Shown: in pieces, positions 11,960-36,160 of the stretch | Numbering within the stretch: the first letter of the stretch is position 1 | Layout: each line of letters starts with the position of its first letter | Source of the DNA: Eledone cirrhosa | Lineage: Eukaryota | Assembly (NCBI GenBank): GCA_964016885.1 | Contig: OZ024740.1 | Span: 297,538,001-297,602,000, forward strand | Direction: 5' to 3' | Length of the DNA: 64,000 nt | Made by a program: the position numbers and the translations under genes | Notes under the pieces: model-generated | What the model was told of the DNA's origin: nothing | Database searches by the model: none | Seen by the model: the letters and a program-made list of their open reading frames with translations, nothing else

Positions 11960-11993
<34 letters not shown>

Positions 11994-12108
11994 TATATAT
12001 ATATATATAGAGAGATATATATATATATAGAGAGATATATATATATATAGATATATATATATATATATAGAGATATATATATATATATATATATATAATT
12101 GTATATAT

Positions 12109-12165
<57 letters not shown>

Positions 12166-12188
12166 TATATATAGATATATAGATATAT

Positions 12189-12227
<39 letters not shown>

Positions 12228-12276
12228 TATATATATATATATAGATATATATATATATATAGATATATATATATAT

Positions 12277-12309
<33 letters not shown>

Positions 12310-12358
12310 TATATATATAGATATATATATATATATATATATATATAGATATATATAT

Positions 12359-12391
<33 letters not shown>

Positions 12392-12510
12392 TATAGATAT
12401 ATATATAGATATATATATATATATATATAGATATAGATATATATATAGATATATATATATATATATATATATATAGATATATATATATATATATATATAG
12501 ATATAGATAT

Positions 12511-14397
12511 ATTATGAAGAGAGAAGAAACATTTAGATATAATTAGTAATAAAATGTATCATACCTAAACTATTCCTAAATTCCTCGACTACGTAGTTTC
12601 GTGGCATAAAGAAAAACAATATATCAAAGATATAGAGTCCTTGCGAGGTCTGCCGACTTATCAAGAGGATACCTCATTTTCCTAGTCTCAAGAACGCGTC
12701 TACACGACGTGAGAAAGAATCCCAAAAGGCGGAGCGGGAGATAGTCACGCGATATAACGGTCGAGAAACAGAGCTAAGCCTCTTATAACCACGAAGAAAA
12801 TACCACGGAGGCGGAGGGGGTATTCATATCGAGGCCGCAGAAGAGGTAGTGAAGAAGGCGAGAAGTATGAGTAATGGAAGCTTTCAGTTGTCCCCACACC
12901 TCAAAGATTGCTCGACCAGAGGGAGTTATTAATATATTTAGAAACACACAAATACATGCGGGGACACACATATATACATGAATGCATCCGCCACCCAACT
13001 GTGAGTTAAGGGTGCCAACTTCACCGATGTTGCTCAATGAATGACCGGGACAGACCAATTCAGTTTGAACTAGACTGAACCAGTATCAGAGTTAAAATAC
13101 ATTATGAAGAGCAGAAGAAACATTTAGATATAATTAGTAATAAAATGTATCATACCTAAACTGTTCCTAAATTCCTCGACTACGTAGTTTCGTGGCATAA
13201 ACAAAAACAATATATCAAAGATATAGAGTCCTTGCGAGGTCTGCCGACTTATCAAGAGGATACCTCATTTTCCTAGTCTCAAGAACGCGTCTACACGACG
13301 TGAGAAAGAATCCCAAAAGGCGGAGGGGAGATAGTCACGCGATATACGGTCGAGAAACAGAGCTAAGATATAGATGAGGAATTTAGGAACAGTTTAGGTA
13401 TGATACATTTTATTACTAATTATATCTAAATGTTTCTTCTCTCTTCATAATGTATTCTCGCCTTCTTCACTACCTCTTCTACGCCTCGATATGAATACCC
13501 CCTCCGCCTCCGTGGTATTTTTCGTGGTTATAAGAGGCTTAGCTCTGTTTCTCGACCGTTATATCGCGTGACTATCTCCCCTCCGCCTTTTGGGATTCTT
13601 TCTCACGTCGTGTAGACGCGTTCTTGAGACTAGTAAAATGAGGTATCCTCTTGATAAGTCGGCAGACCTCGCAAGGACTCTATATCTTTGATATATTGTT
13701 TTTGTTTATGCCACGAAACTACGTAGTCGAGAATTTAGGAACAGTTTGGGTATGATACATTTTATTACTAATTATATCTAAATGTTTCTTCTCTCTTCAT
13801 AATGTATTTTTAACTCTGATACTGGTTCAGTCTGGTTCAAACTGAATTGGTCTGTCCCAGTCATTCATTGAGCAACATCGGTGAAGTTGGCACCCTTAAC
13901 TCACAGTTGGGTGCGGATGCATTCATGTATATATGTGTGTGTCCGCATGTATCTGTGTGTTTCTAAATGTATTAATAACTCCCTCTGGTCGAGCAATCTT
14001 TGAGGTGTGGGGACAACTGGAAAGCTTCCATTACTCATACTTCTCGCCTTCTTCACTACCTCTTCTACGGCCTCGATATGAATACCCCCTCCGCCTCCGT
14101 GGTATTTTTTTCGTGGTTATAAGAGGCTTAGCTCTGTTTCTCGACCGTTATATCGCGTGACTATCTCCCCCTCCGCCTTTTGGGATTCTTTCTCACGTCG
14201 TGTAGACGCGTTCTTGAGACTAGTAAAATGAGGTATCGTCTTGATAAGTCGGCAGACCTCGCAAGGACTCTATATCTTTGATATATTGTTTTTGTTTATG
14301 CCACGAAACTACGTAGTCGAGGAATTTAGGAACAGTTTGGGTATGATACATTTTATTACTAATTATATCTAAATGTTTCTTCTCTCTTCATAATGTA
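12511..14397. mobile_element. Tandem plus inverted ~590-bp hammerhead-carrying element (Penelope pLTR or non-LTR retrozyme-like) in a (TA)n tract
   Basis: Unit starts at 12511 and 13101 (minus sense), with mirrored copies from ~13376 to 14397; one hammerhead per unit; (TA)n/(TAGA)n on both sides. Confidence 0.75.
13173..13260 (-). ncRNA. Type I hammerhead ribozyme with variant core UUGAUAA (copies 12582-12669 minus, 13646-13733 plus, 14236-14323 plus)
   Basis: tcctc-TTGATAA-gtcggca...tgccac-GAAAC-tacgta-GTC-gagga: stems I, II and palindromic III, GUC cleavage triplet. Confidence 0.75.
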
Positions 14398-14398
14398 T

Positions 14399-14459
<61 letters not shown>

Positions 14460-14525
14460 TATATATAGATATATATATAGATTATATATATATATAGATA
14501 TAGATATATATAGATATATATATAT

Positions 14526-14560
<35 letters not shown>

Positions 14561-14607
14561 TATATATATAGATATATAGATAGATATATATATATATAGA
14601 TATATAG

Positions 14608-14638
<31 letters not shown>

Positions 14639-15107
14639 TATATATATATAGATATATATAGATATATATATATATATATATATATAGATATATATATATA
14701 GATATATATAGATATATATATATATATAGATATATATATAAGATATATATATATAGATATATATAGATATATATATATATATAGATATATATTATATAGA
14801 TATATATATATAGATATAGATATATATATATAGATATATATAGATATATATATATATATAGATATATATATAGATATATATATATAGATATATATAGATA
14901 TATATATATAGATATATATAGATATATATATATATAGATATATATATAGATATATATATATAGATATAGATATATATATATATAGATATATATATATAGA
15001 TATATATATATATAGATATATATATATATATATAGATATATATATATATAGATATATATATATATATAGATATATATATATAGATATATATATATAGATA
15101 TATATAT

Positions 15108-15180
<73 letters not shown>

Positions 15181-15191
15181 TATATATATAT

Positions 15192-15230
<39 letters not shown>

Positions 15231-15375
15231 ATAGATATATATATAGATATATATATAGATATATAGATAGATAGATATATATATAGATAGATATATATAT
15301 AGATATATAGATATATATATAGATAGATATATATATAGATATATAGATATATATATAGATATATATATAGATATA

Positions 15376-15419
<44 letters not shown>

Positions 15420-15495
15420 TATATATATAGATATATATATATATCTATATATATATATCTATATATAGATATATATATATATATATATATATATT

Positions 15496-15529
<34 letters not shown>

Positions 15530-15606
15530 ATATATATATAGATATATATATATATAGATATATATATATATATATATATAGATATAGATATATAGATATA
15601 TATATA

Positions 15607-15694
<88 letters not shown>

Positions 15695-15852
15695 TATATA
15701 TCTATATATAGATATATATATATATCTATATATAGATATATATATATATCTATATATAGATATATATATATATCTATATATAGATATATATATATATATA
15801 TAGATATATATATATATATATATATAGATATATATATAGATATATATATATA

Positions 15853-15930
<78 letters not shown>

Positions 15931-15942
15931 TATATATATATA

Positions 15943-16018
<76 letters not shown>

Positions 16019-16030
16019 TATATATCTATA

Positions 16031-16090
<60 letters not shown>

Positions 16091-16105
16091 TAGATATATA
16101 TATAT

Positions 16106-16138
<33 letters not shown>

Positions 16139-16166
16139 TATATATATATATATAGATATATATATA

Positions 16167-16200
<34 letters not shown>

Positions 16201-16876
16201 TATATATATATATATAGATATATAGATATATATATATATATAGATATATATAGATATATATAGATATATATATATATATAGATATAGATATATAGATATA
16301 TATAGATATAGATATATAGATATATATATATATATAGATATATATATATATTAGATATATATAGATATATATATAGATATATATATATATATATAGATAT
16401 ATATATATAGATATATATATATATATAGATATATATATATATATAGATATATATATATATATAGATATATATATATATATAGATATATATATATAGATAT
16501 ATATATATATATATATATAGATATATATATATATATATATATAGATATATATATATAGATATATATAGATATATATATATATATATAGATATAGATATAT
16601 ATATATAGATATATATATATAGATATATAGATATATATATATAGATATATATATAGATATATATATATATATAGATATATATATAGATATATATAGATAT
16701 ATATATATAGATATATATAGATATATATATATAGATATATATAGATATATATATATAGATATATATATATAGATATATATAGATATATATATATAGATAT
16801 ATATAGATATATATATATAGATATATATATATATATATATAGATATATATATAGATATATATAGATATATATATAT

Positions 16877-16916
<40 letters not shown>

Positions 16917-16932
16917 TAGATAGATATATATA

Positions 16933-16967
<35 letters not shown>

Positions 16968-17010
16968 ATATATATATATATATATATCTATATATATATA
17001 TATATATATC

Positions 17011-17066
<56 letters not shown>

Positions 17067-17076
17067 GAGAGAGAGA
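14398..17076. repeat. ~2.7-kb (TA)n/(TAGA) microsatellite ending in (GA)n
   Basis: Direct inspection. Confidence 0.95.
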
Positions 17077-17648
17077 GTGAGTATGGGGTTAACAAAAAAG
17101 GGATGTGTGGATCACATTATTGTCGGTTGTCAAGCAGAGAAAAAGAAGCACTCAACGACCTGTATAAATGGTACAAGACGGAACATTATATATTATTTTA
17201 CCCGAAGAAACAACACTACGCGTTCTGCTGGCCCCATGTATCATAAAAAGAAAAACCTTTTGGGGGAACTTATTAGATTTTTACAAATTTTAAAGGTTTC
17301 TTAGGAACTTTCAATGTTTATTTTAAGAGCTTAGGCAATCTTAATTGATAGTCCTCAGTCAAATATGTATAACGGAGTTTTAAATAAACCTGAATCAACT
17401 GAATATGGCCTCCGATCTTTTATATAATATATAAGGAAGAAAACACAGGAGAGAGAGTGTGTGTTTATCAGGTTACAAAGGGTACCACTAGCGTATGGAA
17501 CTTATAAATTAAGAAAGGTGAGGTAGATACTTTATAATTAAAAAGATAAATTAAAATGAAACAACCCACCTTTCTTAGTTTATAAGTTCCATACGCTAAT
17601 GGTACCCCCTGTAACCTGATAAACACACACACACACACACACACACTA

Positions 17649-17698
<50 letters not shown>

Positions 17699-18225
17699 TC
17701 CCTCGTGTGTTTTCTTCTCTATATTATATTTGAATGGCCCAGGATTATTTTTCCTTTGAGCTCATTAATTACAGGGACTAACACGAGTTTCTGACTCCAT
17801 TACTTCATTTTAATATATATATATACAAAGTGTTAAAACGATCAAATTTTAGTTTAGAACTTTTATTTGCTGACAATTATTTCTTCCAGAAGGAAGTCTG
17901 GAATCATCGGAGCATAGGGAATGTCGAAACATGTAACTAAAAATAGTTGTATCAAACATATATAAATATAAATATATACACAGATAAATCCACTAATTAA
18001 TGGTAGGGTCTAAGCCGTATGAAGAACTCAATGTAATCCGTATGTAGAAGATGTTGTGAAGCAAAGTTTAAAATACAAAATTTCAACGATATAATTCATT
18101 GGATACAGAGTCAAAAATACAAATAGTGAAAACAATGAAATTAAACAAAAAACGGTCAATTCATATTAAAAATAGTTTTACGATGAATTAACCGTTTTTT
18201 GTTTAATTTCATTGTTTTCACTATT

Positions 18226-29356: not shown

Positions 29357-32300
29357 CTGTACTACCACCTATACCTTGACTACCACCTCTACCGCTCCCA
29401 GTACCAATACTACCAGTACTACCACCTGTACCTTGACTACTACCTCTGCCACCCCCAGTACCGGTACTACCTCCTCTACCACCTGTACCACCTCCAATAC
29501 TTTGACTACCACCAGTACCACCTCCAGAACCTTGACTACCATTTGTACCGCTGCCAGTCCCACTACTACTACTACCTGTACTACCACCAGTACCACCTCC
29601 AGTACCGGTACTACCACCTGTACTACCACCAGTACCACCTCCAGAACCTTGACTACCATTTGTACTGCTGCCAGTCCCACTACTACTACCTGTACTGCCA
29701 CCAGTACCACCTCCAGTACCGGTACTACCACCTGTACTACCACCAGTACCACCTCCAGAACCTTGACTACCATTTGTACCGCTGCCAGTCCCACTACTAC
29801 TACCTGTACTACCACCAGTACCACCTCCAGTACCGGTACTACCACCTGTACTACCACCAGTACCACCTCCAGAACCTTGACTACCATTTGTACCGCTGCT
29901 AGTCCCACTACTACCACCTGTACTACCACCAGTACCACCTCCAGTACCGGTACTACCACCAGCACTACCTCCAGTACCGGTACTACCTCCAGTACCGGTA
30001 CTACCTCCAGTTACGGTACTACCACCTGTACTACCACCAGTACCACCTCCAGAACCTTGACTACCATTTGTACCGCTGCCAGTCCCACTACTACCACCTG
30101 TACTACCACCAGTACCACGTCCAGTACCGGTACTACCACCTGTACTTCCCCAGTACCACCTCCAGTACTGGTACCACCACCTGTACTACCACCAATACCA
30201 CCTCCAGTACCGGTACTACCACCTGTACCGCTTCCAGAAACATGACTACCTCCTCCACCACCACCTATACCATGACTACCACTTGTACTACCACCTGTAC
30301 TACCACCTGTACCTTGACTACCACCAGTACCACCTCCAGTACCACCTCCAGTACCACTACGACCACCAGTGCCAGCTCCAGTACCGGCACTACCACCTGT
30401 ACTACCACCTCCAGTACCAGTACTACCACCTCCAGTACCTGTACTACCACCTGTACTACCACCGGTACCACCTCCAGTACCAGTACTACCACCTATACTA
30501 CCACCAGTATCAGTTCCACTTCCAGTACCACCTCCAGTACCGGTACTACCACCTGTACTACCACCAATACCACCTCCAGGACCATTACTACCACCTATAC
30601 TACCACCTGTACCAGTACTACCACCAGTACCACCTCCAGTACCGGTACTACCACCAGTACCACCTCCAGTGCCGGTACTACCACCAGTACCACCTCCAGT
30701 ACCACCTGCAGCACCGGTACTACCACCAGTACCACCTCGAGTACCACCTGCAGCACCGGTACTACCACCTGTACCACTTCCAGTACCACCTGCAGCACCG
30801 GTACTACCACCAGTACCACCTCCAGTACCACCTGCAGCACCGGTACTACCACCTGTACCACTTCCAGTACCACTACTACCACCAGTACCATCACCTGTTC
30901 CACCTCCAGTTCCGATGTTACCACCAGTACCACCATCTATACCTTGACTACCGCCTGTACCACCACCTGTACTACCTCCAGTACCACTACTACCACCAGT
31001 TCCACCTCCAGTACCACCTCCAGTACCACTACTACCACCTGTACCACCACCAGTACCACCTCCAGTACCACTACTACCGCCTGTACTGCCTCCAGTACCA
31101 GTATTACCACCAGTACCACCGCCTGTACCACCACCAGTACCACCTCCAGTAACCGAACTACCACCTGTACCTTGACTACCACCAGTACTACCTCCAGTAC
31201 CAGCACTAACACCTGTACCACTTCCAGTGTCGTGACTACCACCAGTACCACTTCTAGTACCAGTACTACCACCTGTACCACCACCAGTACCAGTACTACC
31301 ACCTGTACCTTGACTACCACCTGTACTACCTCCTGTACCTTGACTACTACCAGTACCAGCACTACCACCTGTACTACCACCTGTACCACTTCCAGTACCA
31401 CTACCTGTACCACTTCCAGTACCGGTACTACCACCTGTACCACCTCCAGTACCAGTACTACCACCTGTACCACCTCCAGTACCAGTACTACCACCTGTAC
31501 CACCTCCTGTACCTTGACTACCACCTGTCCTACCTCCTGTACCTTGACTACCACCAGTACCAGTACTACCACCTGTACCACCTCCAGTACCAGTACTACC
31601 ACCTGTGCCACCTCCAGTACTACCACCTGTACCACCGCCTGTACCTTGACTACCACCTGTGCTACCTCCTGTACCTTGACTACTATCAGTACCAGTACTA
31701 CCACCTGTGCCACCTCCAGTACTACCATCTGTACCACCTCCTGTACCTTGACTACCACCTGTACTACCTCCTGTACTTTGACTACTACCAGTACCAGTAC
31801 TACCACCTGTACTACCTCCTGTACCTTGACTACCACCAGTACCAGTACTACCACCTGTACTACCACCTGTACTTCCACCTGTACTAGCTCCAGTACCTTG
31901 ACTACCACCAGTACTACCACCTGTACCACCTCCAGTACCAGTACTACCACTTATACCACCTCCAGTACCAGTACTACCACCAGTACTACCTCCTGAACCT
32001 TGACTACCACCTCCTGTACCTGTACTATCACCTGTACTACCTCCTGTATCTTGACTACCACCTGTACTACCACCAGTACCACCACCTGTACTACCACCTG
32101 TACCTTGACTACCACTTGTACTACCACCAGTACCACCACCTGTACTACCACCTGTACCTTGACTACCGCCTGCACTACCTCTTGTACTACCACCTCTACT
32201 ACCACCTGTACCACCTCCTGCACCTTGACTACCACCTCCTGTACCTGTACTACCACCTGTACTACCTCCTGCACCTTGACTACCACCTGTACTACCACCT

Positions 32301-32892
32301 GTACCACCTCCTGCACCTTGACTACCACCTCTATCACCTCCTGTACTTGTACTACCACCTGTACTACCTCCTATACCTTGACTACCACCTGTACTTCCAC
32401 CGATTCTACCTCCTGTACCTTGACTACCACTTGTACTACCACCTGTACTACCTCCTGTACCTTGACTACCACCTGTACTACCACCTCTACTTCCACCTGT
32501 ATTACCTCCTATACTATCGCCTGTACCACTGCCAGTACCGCCTCCTGTACCACCTCCTGTACTTTGACTACCACCTGTACTACCTCCTGTACTACCACCT
32601 GCACCACCACCTCTACTACCACCTGCAACACCACCTGTACTACCACCTGTACTACCACCTGTACCACCACCTCTACTACCACCTGTATTACCACCTATAA
32701 CACCACCTGTATTACCACCTGTATTACCACCTGTAACACCACCTGTACTACCACCTGTATTACCACCTGTACTACCACCTATACCATCTCTAGTACCTTG
32801 ACCACCCCCTGCAGCCCCTCCTGCAATATGACCACCCGATACTCCGTTCCCTGTTGTGTTATCTATCTGATGCAATGCCGAGGCCAGTTCAT
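29357..32892 (-). CDS. Giant Gly/Ser/Thr low-complexity exon (~1,180 aa; GGST, GGGTG and GSQGTG repeats) with a 1-nt deletion near 30150
   Basis: Acceptor tttttcAG at 32893-32894 gives DELASALHQIDN in frame with ORF 30011..32875; the Gly frame resumes after a shift at ~30150; donor uncertain (CAG|gtatag at 29357 or near 29247). Confidence 0.85.
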
Positions 32893-35479: not shown

Positions 35480-36160
35480 ATCAGTAGACCTCATGTAGAT
35501 TATGATCTGAAAAGGTGTAAGGAATGTAGCAAAGAACGTGCTAGCATGGGAGGTCTTAATACACATGAAAACACACAGCCAGAGCAAAGGAATGGAAAGT
35601 ACCAGAAGAGACTACAGTTGCCATGTATGTGCTAGAGGGTGCAAGTCTTTGGCTGGTTTAAAGAGCCACATTCGTGCCTCACATTTTTTAGCATTTTATC
35701 GGGCGATGGCAATGCTCAAACACGAGTTTGCAATCATCATTTATGTTTGTATGTATGCATCTATGTATGTATGTAGTATAGAAATACGTAAGTATGCATG
35801 TACTAATGCATGCATCTATGTATGTATGTATGTAAGTATGTATTCATGCGTGCATTTATGTATGTATGAATTGAATTGAAGTGCGCTGAGTGTGGAAAAA
35901 TTTGCTTGAGCAAATCTGGTTTCAGGGGCCACGGTCGCATCCATGTTCAAAGAGAACCAGTGAACTATGATCTCCATGGTATTGTGAAGGTTCACAGGCA
36001 ACCTGATGCAAGACCTAAGACCAGAGAGATCCATAGTTGTCGTCAATTTGAGAAGGAGTGCAAGTCCCTAGCAGGATTGAAAAGCCATATCCAAGCGTCA
36101 CAAATCTGAATCTGACAAGCGATTGTAATACTCTTAGCAAAGTTTGCAGCCATCATGCAT
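35480..36160 (+). mobile_element. Two RTE-type LINE 3' ends with C2H2 zinc-finger remnants and (TATG)n tails
   Basis: CHVCARGCKSLAGLKSHIRA and CAECGKICLSKSGFRGHGRIH; tail ttgcagccatcat(gtat)n. Confidence 0.6.

What the first reader, a model, noticed from the sequence alone, without database searches (positions are those of the whole stretch)
12511..14397. ~590-bp tandem/inverted element with a U3-A8 variant hammerhead, a candidate retrozyme
Seen: four ribozyme copies, two per strand, spaced 590-591 nt. The core is UUGAUAA instead of CUGAUGA, with GAAAC, a palindromic stem III and a GUC site; stem I is perfect in the two minus copies. Known: C3-G8 is a tertiary Watson-Crick pair and U3-A8 is its rare compensatory variant; tandem type I hammerhead units in animals yield circular RNAs. 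Inference: the host intron (minus strand) could self-cleave out a ~590-nt monomer that circularises.
Basis: partly seen in the sequence, partly recalled or inferred. Interest (0 to 1): 0.75.

Follow-up and report, generated by a model that had tools for sequence, protein, structure and literature searches.

The report
Variant-hammerhead retrozyme copied by Penelope machinery
This is one young insertion of a 590-base non-coding repeat present thousands of times in an animal genome; every unit carries a hammerhead self-cutting RNA motif with an already published base-pair swap, it was likely copied in by Penelope-type retrotransposon enzymes, and cutting and RNA circles remain untested.

Summary
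Window 12508-14397 holds 3.5 units of a 590/591-nt repeat in two head-to-head arms. It has four identical hammerhead-like motifs, two per strand: UUGAUAA, GAAAC, the palindrome ACUACGUAGU, and GUC.

It is no assembly chimera. The motif occurs about 7,500 times in the genome. Arms almost always lie head-to-head, with fixed 3' ends at (TA)n microsatellites and ragged 5' ends. This is the published footprint of Penelope-like elements (PLEs).

Evidence for a real hammerhead:
- The two halves of the motif are among the three longest blocks conserved between subfamilies that agree at only 73% of columns.
- The sense RNA is unusually stable (z -5.1; antisense -0.7).
- Two copies are predicted to fold into a double hammerhead.
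- An intact PLE and over 20,000 mini-hammerheads in the same genome use the same U3-A8 core with different, still paired, stem II sequences.

Evidence against or missing:
- Rfam gives no hit.
- There is no C3-G8 relative within the family.
- Insertion ends leave no cleavage footprint.
- No RNA data were available.
- No host intron was found.

U3-A8 PLE hammerheads and animal retrozymes are both published, so this is a new member of a known kind.

The parts
11960..12507 (.). Left flank: (TA)n/(TATAGATA)n microsatellite, the likely integration target.
   Evidence: Sequence and repeat families. Of 80 arms in 50 other loci, 75 end at one of the two canonical 3' positions, and 69 of those 75 abut a TA-rich flank.
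12508..13097 (-). Left arm, outer full unit (unit 1-590). Its 3' end abuts the microsatellite.
   Evidence: 97.1% identity to the reference unit over 1-590. End sequence.
13098..13367 (-). Left arm, inner 5'-truncated unit (unit 320-590).
13368..13375 (.). 8-nt filler ATATAGAT between the two arms. It looks like a scrap of the target microsatellite.
Evidence: Sequence.
13376..13454 (+). Right arm, 79-nt fragment (unit 512-590) that begins exactly at G1.1, the base after the predicted cleavage site.
   Evidence: There is no genome-wide enrichment of such starts.
13455..13806 (+). Right arm, unit with positions 1-233 missing (unit 234-590).
13808..14397 (+). Right arm, outer full unit (unit 1-590), used as the reference unit. 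Its 3' end abuts the microsatellite.
14398..16000 (.). Right flank: (TA)n/(TATAGATA)n microsatellite. It runs on beyond 16000.
   Evidence: GC 0.13-0.20 for 14001-18000.
12577..12680 (-). Hammerhead motif 1, with perfect stem I. Predicted cut lies between + coordinates 12587 and 12586.
13168..13271 (-). Hammerhead motif 2, with perfect stem I. Predicted cut lies between 13178 and 13177.
13636..13740 (+). Hammerhead motif 3. Stem I is weakened by loss of one G (GA-GAA). Predicted cut lies after 13728.
14226..14331 (+). Hammerhead motif 4. Stem I is weakened (AUCGUC). Predicted cut lies after 14318.

Best explanation
This is a young insertion of a 590-nt non-coding, tandemly repeated retroelement of the animal non-LTR retrozyme kind, likely copied into a (TA)n microsatellite by the reverse transcriptase and GIY-YIG endonuclease of a Penelope-like element (PLE) in the same genome.

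Shown:
- Each unit carries, on the strand that served as RNA template, a type I hammerhead motif. Its parts are a 5-bp stem I; the core UUGAUAA (U3 and A8 in place of C3 and G8); a long stem II with a bulged C; GAAA; and a stem III that is a 10-nt palindrome, followed by GUC.
- The family has about 7,500 motif copies.
- Insertions have two fixed 3' ends, both at AAUGUAU-like sites next to (TA)n.
- The 5' ends are ragged.
- Arms lie head-to-head, and the two arms of one locus come from nearly identical templates.

Inferred:
- Multimeric sense transcripts would pair two motifs through the palindrome into a double hammerhead and cut after GUC.
- The monomers would be ligated into highly paired 590-nt circles.
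- Both DNA ends of a break in (TA)n would prime reverse transcription on such a circular or multimeric RNA by TA microhomology. That would give tandem units on each arm.
For: Family and layout:
- The 22-mer of the 3' half occurs 7,496 times against 0 for the reversed control. The 18-mer of the 5' half occurs 6,355 times.
- Among the first 100 places listed, 14 strand switches within 2.5 kb are (-,+) and 1 is (+,-). Same-strand spacing is 585-607 nt, with a mode of 591.
- In 50 fetched loci with 80 arms, 39 arms end at unit position ~590, 36 at ~165 and 5 elsewhere. 69 of the 75 canonical ends abut TA-rich sequence. The 5' ends are spread over positions 5-556 (end sequences).
- Unit identity is 99.6% within an arm (41 pairs), 99.8% between the two arms of one locus (29 pairs) and 97.8% between loci (300 pairs). 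Both contrasts with 'between loci' give p about 1e-15.

Hammerhead:
- Subfamilies A and B agree at 73% of 603 columns. The longest identical run (29 nt) is the 5' half of the motif, and a 19-nt run that continues across the unit boundary is the 3' half (alignments).
- The extended stem II keeps pairing through 8 one-sided wobble-compatible changes and a U-A/U-G/C-G series at one pair. 92.5% of cells pair, against 31-53% when partners are slid.
- The sense monomer folds at -174.2 kcal/mol with z -5.12 (0 of 100 shuffles as good). The antisense gives z -0.70.
- Two 110-nt copies cofold at -58.9 kcal/mol against 2 x -22.9, and that minimum-energy structure is the double hammerhead. In subfamily B the monomer minimum is already close to the hammerhead junction.

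PLE link:
- All 150 scored GIY-YIG matches, out of 10,596 candidates, pass the Pfam cut-off.
[quoted passage not shown] Two mini-hammerheads, UUGAAAA-GCAGAAGAACUGC-GAAACCGGUA, flank it 4,979 nt apart, and its 3' end abuts (TA)n.
- All 8 hammerhead hits in 42 PLE loci have U3/A8, and 20 shuffles gave none.
- YTGANRA-N8-22-GAAACCGGTA matches 20,850 times against 49 for the control. 99 of the first 100 are U3/A8, and they show at least three different stem II sequences.

Literature:
- U3-A8 PLE mini-hammerheads in Schistosoma (PMC4209133, passages).
- PLE partial tandems, inverted 5'-truncated copies and (TA)n bias (PMC8557442, passages).
- Animal retrozymes as PLE non-autonomous partners, with consensus lengths of 51-972 bp (bioRxiv 10.64898/2026.07.22.740005, abstract and Results).
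Against: - No Rfam hammerhead model matches, either at gathering score or at E up to 10 on 12400-14500.
- RNAalifold on 26 copies does not return the three-way junction. It prefers a helix UGAGGU/ACCUCR and other local pairs.
- In subfamily A the monomer hammerhead fold lies 5-8 kcal/mol above the minimum.
- Stems I, II-base and III never vary between subfamilies, so they carry no covariation. Whole-structure covariation is weak (0.112 against 0.100 shuffled; 5 of 500 shuffles as high).
- No C3/G8 version of the family exists (0 hits).
- Insertions show no cleavage footprint. 0 of 80 arms end at unit 511. Only 1 of 80 arm 5' ends (L131) lies within 4 nt of the site, where about 1.2 are expected.
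- Published PLE mini-hammerheads cut poorly in vitro (PMC4209133).
- The unit shows no sequence similarity to the 12 long PLE loci examined, outside a microsatellite-like stretch. The partner PLE is therefore inferred from shared target, shared core type and a similar UUUCUAAUAUAU-like 3' end.
Confidence: 0.72

Rival explanations
1. The element is a PLE-dependent non-autonomous retroelement, but the hammerhead-shaped block no longer cuts. On this view it is conserved as a recognition or folding signal for the PLE enzyme, or as a hitch-hiking relic, and templates are plain linear read-through transcripts rather than circles.
For: - Insertion ends show no cleavage footprint.
- Rfam gives no hit.
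- The monomer fold is not the energy minimum in subfamily A.
- Published PLE mini-hammerheads have low in vitro activity (PMC4209133).
- Craig et al. note that PLE clades without canonical hammerheads proliferate well, so hammerheads may simply parasitise PLEs (PMC8557442).
Against: - Every invariant hammerhead nucleotide apart from the paired 3/8 swap is kept across subfamilies that differ at 27% of columns.
- At least four families with unrelated stem II sequences keep the same core, a paired stem II and a palindromic stem III.
- The predicted dimer minimum is exactly the double hammerhead.
- Arrays of up to 5 units and two alternative internal start sites fit a circular or multimeric template better than a defined linear one.
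Confidence: 0.2
2. The units are pseudo-LTR pieces of an autonomous PLE (solo or tandem pLTR arrays), not a separate non-autonomous family.
For: - PLE hammerheads sit in pLTRs about 80-155 nt from the 3' end, as here.
- Li et al. find retrozymes sister to pLTRs.
Against: - In the 79 family loci mapped, arrays consist only of the 590-nt unit, with no intervening sequence.
- blastn of the unit against 42 PLE loci gave only microsatellite-like matches, apart from one neighbouring insertion in L057.
- No open frame of 150 aa or more lies in 20 kb around the diverged copy L029, apart from two overlapping frames of 200 and 156 aa that were not examined further.
Confidence: 0.06
3. The tandem/inverted layout is an assembly artefact, or an ordinary satellite spread by DNA-level duplication.
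For: - Craig et al. warn that such structures trouble assemblies.
- One locus (L116) is a local duplication of a whole insertion.
Against: - The same head-to-head form recurs at many separate loci with a 14:1 orientation bias.
- 3' ends are fixed at (TA)n and 5' ends are ragged.
- Contigs of runs from two other coded organisms hold the unit as 620/621-nt pieces, which is 590 plus k-1 and is the signature of a tandem or circular 590-nt sequence.
Confidence: 0.02

Closest known systems
Metazoan non-LTR retrozymes (Cervera and de la Pena 2020, PMC7229834, passages read; Li et al. 2026 bioRxiv, abstract and Results read)
   Same: Non-coding, low-GC (41.9%) tandem repeats. Each unit carries a type I hammerhead with a weak, palindromic stem III that should act as a dimer. 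The sense RNA is highly self-paired. The element co-occurs with PLEs. Its unit length falls within the 51-972 bp reported.
   Different: The core is U3-A8 rather than C3-G8. The unit is 590 nt, against the usual ~170-400 nt. Stem II is extended to about 20 bp instead of 4 bp. Arrays are short (1-5 units per arm), dispersed, head-to-head and placed in (TA)n, not long tandem blocks. Circular RNA has not been shown here.
Minimal hammerheads of Penelope-like elements, including the U3-A8 covariant of Schistosoma mansoni (Cervera and de la Pena 2014, PMC4209133, passages read)
   Same: U3-A8 core, short stem I (4-5 bp), a bulge in stem II, a palindromic stem III implying dimers, occurrence on opposite strands 100-700 bp apart, and invisibility to standard descriptors.
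   Different: Those motifs sit in the pLTRs of coding PLEs or in truncated copies. Here the motif sits in a 590-nt non-coding unit of its own, has a 3-bp stem III with a loop rather than none, and has a much longer stem II.
PLE integration footprint (Craig, Yushenova, Rodriguez and Arkhipova 2021, PMC8557442, passages read)
   Same: Strong 5' truncation, partial tandems, an adjacent inverted 5'-truncated copy, and microsatellite targets, with (TA)n reported for Naiads.
   Different: That paper describes coding elements. Here the same footprint is left by a non-coding repeat. Two alternative 3' start points and near-identity of the two arms are added observations.

Membership tests
Hammerhead ribozyme (consensus as given in PMC7151607) | Invariant core U4 G5 A6 A9, G12 A13 A14, the A15.1-U16.1 pair, and H17 at the cleavage site. 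| tested here: met
   UUGAUAA ... GAAAC ... GUC is present in all 4 window copies. The core is unchanged in most of the 78 distinct family copies aligned, with single-base changes in a few decayed copies.
Hammerhead ribozyme | C3 and G8 identities. | tested here: not met
   U3 and A8 are found in 6,355 exact copies, and the C3/G8 version has 0. The element is therefore filed under the published U3-A8 variant class, not the canonical consensus.
Hammerhead ribozyme, U3-A8 variant class (PMC4209133) | Positions 3 and 8 can form a Watson-Crick pair, with the rest of the core canonical. | tested here: met
   U3/A8 occurs here and in 99 of the first 100 PLE-type motifs listed in the genome.
Hammerhead ribozyme | Three helices around the core, with G10.1-C11.1 closing stem II. 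| tested here: met
   Stem I has 5 bp, the stem II base has 6 bp with a bulged C and a G-C first pair, and stem III has 3 bp or a 10-nt palindrome. 85.8-98.7% of cells are paired per helix. These helices never vary, so covariation does not support them.
Hammerhead ribozyme | Match to a curated covariance model (Rfam hammerhead families). | tested here: not met
   No hammerhead hit at gathering score or at E up to 10. The intact PLE's mini-hammerheads are missed as well.
Hammerhead ribozyme | Site-specific self-cleavage. | not testable with these tools
   No RNA run was listed, and the runs laid are contigs that cannot show RNA ends.
Animal non-LTR retrozyme | [quoted passage not shown] | tested here: met
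   Spacing is 590/591 nt. The one open frame of 90 aa or more inside the element (12786-13085, -) has no Pfam match.
Animal non-LTR retrozyme | Expressed as linear and circular monomer RNA. | not testable with these tools
   No RNA holder was listed.
Animal non-LTR retrozyme | Highly self-paired sense RNA. | tested here: met
   z is -5.12 for the sense strand and -0.70 for the antisense.
Animal non-LTR retrozyme | Co-occurrence with PLEs and shared features with their termini. | tested here: met
   PLEs are abundant, and an intact one has a U3-A8 hammerhead and a (TA)n-abutting 3' end. No alignable homology of the unit to PLE termini was found.
Penelope-like element (autonomous) | An open frame encoding reverse transcriptase and GIY-YIG endonuclease within the element. 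| tested here: not met
   Arrays consist only of the 590-nt unit. The element is not a PLE itself.

The most novel reading that the evidence does not exclude
In this animal the whole hammerhead population uses the U3-A8 core: about 7,500 retrozyme units plus more than 20,000 Penelope-type mini-hammerheads in several stem II families. That makes it invisible to Rfam and to CUGANGA-based descriptors. Penelope clades and genomes reported as 'hammerhead-less' may therefore simply carry variant cores. The retrozyme's insertions would then record a single-event, two-ended priming of reverse transcription on one circular RNA, starting at either of two AAUGUAU sites by pairing with (TA)n DNA ends.
Probability: 0.35. 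Interest if true: 0.6.

Novelty: new member of a known kind. Interest (0 to 1): 0.4.

Why it matters
The element itself is ordinary for its class, but it has three practical uses.

- **Detection gap.** Standard ribozyme searches miss an entire genome's worth of hammerheads when the 3-8 pair is swapped. Censuses of ribozymes and of 'hammerhead-less' Penelope clades may therefore be biased.
- **A clean record of Penelope-type integration.** The family is young, with units in one locus 99.6-99.8% alike, and abundant. The record shows two discrete start sites next to (TA)n, ragged 5' ends, head-to-head arms from one template, and multi-unit arms. This integration mechanism has no in vitro system yet (stated in PMC8557442).
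- **A natural test bed.** A candidate autonomous partner with an open 938-aa frame lies in the same genome. That gives a pair for asking whether U3-A8 hammerheads cut in vivo and what they do for the element.

Tried and rejected
- **RNA evidence.** No RNA holder was listed for the 1,890-nt stretch. The four runs laid are contigs of unknown library kind, so they say nothing on expression, RNA ends or circles. The very high summed word depth in X1 cannot be read as expression.
- **Cleavage footprint in DNA copies.** I tested whether arm 5' ends pile up at G1.1, or 3' ends at C17. They do not. The window's own 512-590 fragment is therefore an anecdote.
- **3-8 covariation inside the family.** The C3/G8 version has 0 hits. 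The single-swap versions were not counted.
- **Autonomous partner by homology.** blastn of the unit against 42 PLE loci found only microsatellite-like matches. The region around the diverged copy L029 has no long open frame.
- **Host gene.** Pfam scans of 102 open frames (29 of 90 aa or more on both strands, 73 of 55-89 aa on the + strand) gave only a SUZ12 zinc-domain exon, which passes the Pfam cut-off, and two hits below cut-off. A protein search with that exon found nothing. Minus-strand frames of 55-89 aa were not scanned.
- **mir-268-like hits.** The hits at E 0.004-0.36 on the hairpin 3' of the cleavage site fall far below the gathering score and were taken as chance.
- **Earlier notes of this scan.** Look-ups by place and by sequence returned nothing.
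- **Lunse et al. 2017.** The paper on dimeric PLE hammerheads is not held in the library. I saw only papers that cite it, so what I say of it is recalled.
Full report
**Observation**

Window 12508-14397 is made of a 590/591-nt unit. In hammerhead-sense orientation the left arm lies on the minus strand. It holds a full unit (12508-13097) and a 5'-truncated one (unit 320-590, 13098-13367). An 8-nt ATATAGAT follows. The right arm lies on the plus strand and holds a 79-nt piece (unit 512-590, 13376-13454), a unit lacking positions 1-233 (13455-13806) and a full unit (13808-14397).

Both outer ends abut long (TA)n/(TATAGATA)n microsatellite. The 18-mer that starts with the core occurs four times, two per strand, 591 and 590 nt apart. 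Shuffles expect 0.02.

**It is a large, young, dispersed family, not an assembly chimera**

- The 3' half of the motif (22-mer) occurs 7,496 times in the 3.0-Gb genome, against 0 for the reversed control. The 5' half (18-mer) occurs 6,355 times.
- Among the first 100 places listed, same-strand neighbours are 585-607 nt apart (mode 591). Strand switches within 2.5 kb are 14 times (-,+) and once (+,-). The single exception is a local duplication of a whole insertion.
- I fetched those 50 loci and mapped 80 arms. 39 arms end at unit position ~590 (CAUAAUGUA|UAUA), 36 at ~165 (UUUCUAAAUAUAU|AUAU) and 5 elsewhere. 69 of the 75 canonical ends are followed by TA-rich sequence. The 5' ends are spread from 5 to 556.
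- The first 29 loci show the same pattern.
- Units are 99.6% alike within an arm (41 pairs), 99.8% between the two arms of a locus (29 pairs, median 100%) and 97.8% between loci (300 random pairs). The two arms of a locus therefore come from one template or one event, and insertions are recent.
- In runs of two other coded organisms the unit sits on contigs of 620 and 621 nt. That equals 590 plus k-1, as expected for a tandem or circular 590-nt sequence.

**What the footprint means**

Fixed 3' ends, ragged 5' ends, partial tandems, an adjacent inverted 5'-truncated copy and microsatellite targets are the published marks of Penelope-like elements (PMC8557442, passages).

The geometry also fixes the template strand. 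When both 3'-OH ends of a broken target prime cDNA synthesis, the RNA-sense strand points outward on both sides. That is the (-,+) order seen for the hammerhead strand. The hammerhead therefore lies on the RNA that was copied (inference).

Three further points follow:
- Arms cross the 590/1 boundary and reach five units.
- Priming starts at either of two internal AAUGUAU-like sites.
- No arm ends at the cleavage site.

The template was therefore longer than one unit or circular, and it was uncut or religated at the hammerhead site (inference).

**Is the motif a real hammerhead? Evidence for**

1. *Conservation.* A comparison of 10 units of subfamily A with 3 of subfamily B gives 73% agreement over 603 columns. 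The longest identical run (29 nt) is stem I 5' strand plus UUGAUAA plus the stem II 5' base. A 19-nt run that continues over the unit boundary is the stem II 3' base plus GAAAC plus stem III plus GUC (visible). A third block of 22 nt, about 100 nt upstream, is equally conserved and unexplained.
2. *Extended stem II.* Between the two halves the sequence has diverged but stays paired as an extended stem II. There are 8 pairs with one-sided, wobble-compatible changes and one pair running U-A, U-G, C-G. 92.5% of cells pair, against 31-53% with slid partners.
3. *Strand asymmetry.* The sense monomer folds at -174.2 kcal/mol with z -5.12. The antisense gives z -0.70.
4. *Dimer.* Two 110-nt copies cofold at -58.9 kcal/mol against -45.8 for two monomers. 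The minimum is exactly the double hammerhead: a 10-bp intermolecular stem III, stems I formed in trans and stems II formed in cis. In subfamily B stem I is 7 bp, and the monomer minimum is nearly the three-way junction.
5. *Genome context.* All 150 scored GIY-YIG matches, out of 10,596 candidates, pass the Pfam cut-off. [quoted passage not shown] It is flanked on the same strand, 4,979 nt apart, by two mini-hammerheads UUGAAAA-GCAGAAGAACUGC-GAAACCGGUA|AAGG, and its 3' end ...CUUUCUAAUAUAUA abuts (TA)n. All 8 hammerhead hits in 42 PLE loci are U3/A8, none is C3/G8, and 20 shuffles gave none. The pattern YTGANRA-N8-22-GAAACCGGTA has 20,850 matches against 49 for the control. 99 of the first 100 are U3/A8 and 1 is U3/G8. 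Stem II reads GCAG/CUGC, UGCAU/AUGCA or GAUG/CAUC. Together with GU(C)GGCA/UGCCAC here, that is between-family covariation of stem II around one constant variant core.

**Evidence against, told in full**

- Rfam gives no hammerhead hit at gathering score or at E up to 10. It also misses the PLE mini-hammerheads, so this speaks more about the models than about the motif.
- RNAalifold does not recover the junction. It pairs UGAGGU (just 5' of stem I) with ACCUCR (an internal loop of stem II), with U-A/U-G/C-G variation at the end pair. This may be a competing fold or a tertiary pseudoknot of the kind known to link stems I and II (recalled, not tested).
- In subfamily A the monomer hammerhead lies 5-8 kcal/mol above the minimum.
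- The core helices never vary, so they have no covariation of their own. Overall covariation is barely above shuffles.
- No C3/G8 relative of the family exists.
- DNA copies carry no cleavage scar. 0 of 80 arms end at 511. One of 80 starts within 4 nt of 512, where about 1.2 are expected. The window's own 512-590 piece is thus not evidence.
- No RNA data could be had.
- PLE mini-hammerheads cut poorly in vitro (PMC4209133).

**Mechanism, with shown and inferred steps marked**

Shown:
- Family size, layout, target and end positions.
- Template strand.
- Origin of both arms from one template.
- Conservation of the motif.
- An intact PLE with the same core type and target in the same genome.

Inferred:
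- Sense multimers form double hammerheads and cut after GUC.
- A cellular ligase closes the monomers, as RtcB does for retrozymes in vitro (PMC7229834).
- PLE endonuclease breaks (TA)n.
- Both DNA ends anneal to AAUGUAU sites of the circular or multimeric RNA and prime reverse transcription.
- The two cDNAs are joined at ragged inner ends.

**Comparison and novelty**

The element works like, and fits the defining features I could test of, an animal non-LTR retrozyme (PMC7229834; bioRxiv 10.64898/2026.07.22.740005). Its hammerhead belongs to the U3-A8 variant already published for Schistosoma PLEs (PMC4209133). It is not a canonical C3-G8 hammerhead, and it is not a PLE.

It differs from typical retrozymes in four ways: unit size (590 nt), a stem II of about 20 bp, short dispersed head-to-head arrays in (TA)n, and the variant core.

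The word search of earlier notes in this scan returned notes that describe U3-A8 retrozyme-like repeats in this genome and at least four others. These are unchecked AI notes. They agree with my reading, but they are not independent evidence.

**Host gene**

The only gene-like signal is a SUZ12-type zinc-domain exon on the plus strand at 35511-35876.

**Verdict**

This is a real feature and a new member of a known kind. Interest is moderate. It rests on how clearly this young family records Penelope-type integration, and on the finding that a whole genome's hammerheads escape standard detection.

Noticed in passing
genome-wide (G000); examples L092:3452 and L092:8431 (- strand): More than 20,000 Penelope-type mini-hammerheads match YTGANRA-N8-22-GAAACCGGTA (20,850 matches against 49 for the control). 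99 of the first 100 have a U3/A8 core, they fall into several stem II families, and many sit as (-,+) pairs about 100 nt apart. Rfam finds none of those tested.
   Followed up: partly
window about 14125-14160 (+) and the matching place in each unit: A 22-nt block about 100 nt upstream of the hammerhead is as conserved between subfamilies A and B as the hammerhead halves. No role is known.
   Followed up: no
window 13639-13644 with 13666-13671 (+), and the same places in the other units: UGAGGU just 5' of stem I can pair with ACCUCG in an internal loop of stem II. The end pair varies U-A/U-G/C-G across subfamilies. It is either a competing fold or a pseudoknot-type tertiary contact.
   Followed up: partly
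window 30011-32875 (-): A 954-aa open frame consists of G/T/S-rich repeats (GGSTGG-like; 471 G among the 955 residues translated) in a GC-rich, strongly skewed stretch, with no Pfam match. It is most likely a minisatellite rather than a gene.
   Followed up: partly
window 35511-35876 (+): An open frame matches the SUZ12-like zinc domain (PF23320, E 3.9e-07, above cut-off). It is the only clear gene-like signal found in the window.
   Followed up: partly
L116 (G000:C1:19618616-19625329): A complete '-++' insertion of the family is present twice, 2,554 bp apart, with identical junction positions. This is a local segmental duplication.
   Followed up: no
Read laying on window 12400-14500, runs X4 and X6: Two other coded organisms hold the unit at about 99% identity as single contigs of 621 and 620 nt. 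The family is therefore shared beyond the source of this window.
   Followed up: no
window 12510-12597 (-), 13365-13452 (+), 14308-14395 (+) and others: The ~88-nt stretch that runs from just 5' of the cleavage site to the unit's 3' end forms an imperfect hairpin. It gives weak mir-268-like Rfam hits (23-30 bits against a gathering score of 47), taken as chance.
   Followed up: no
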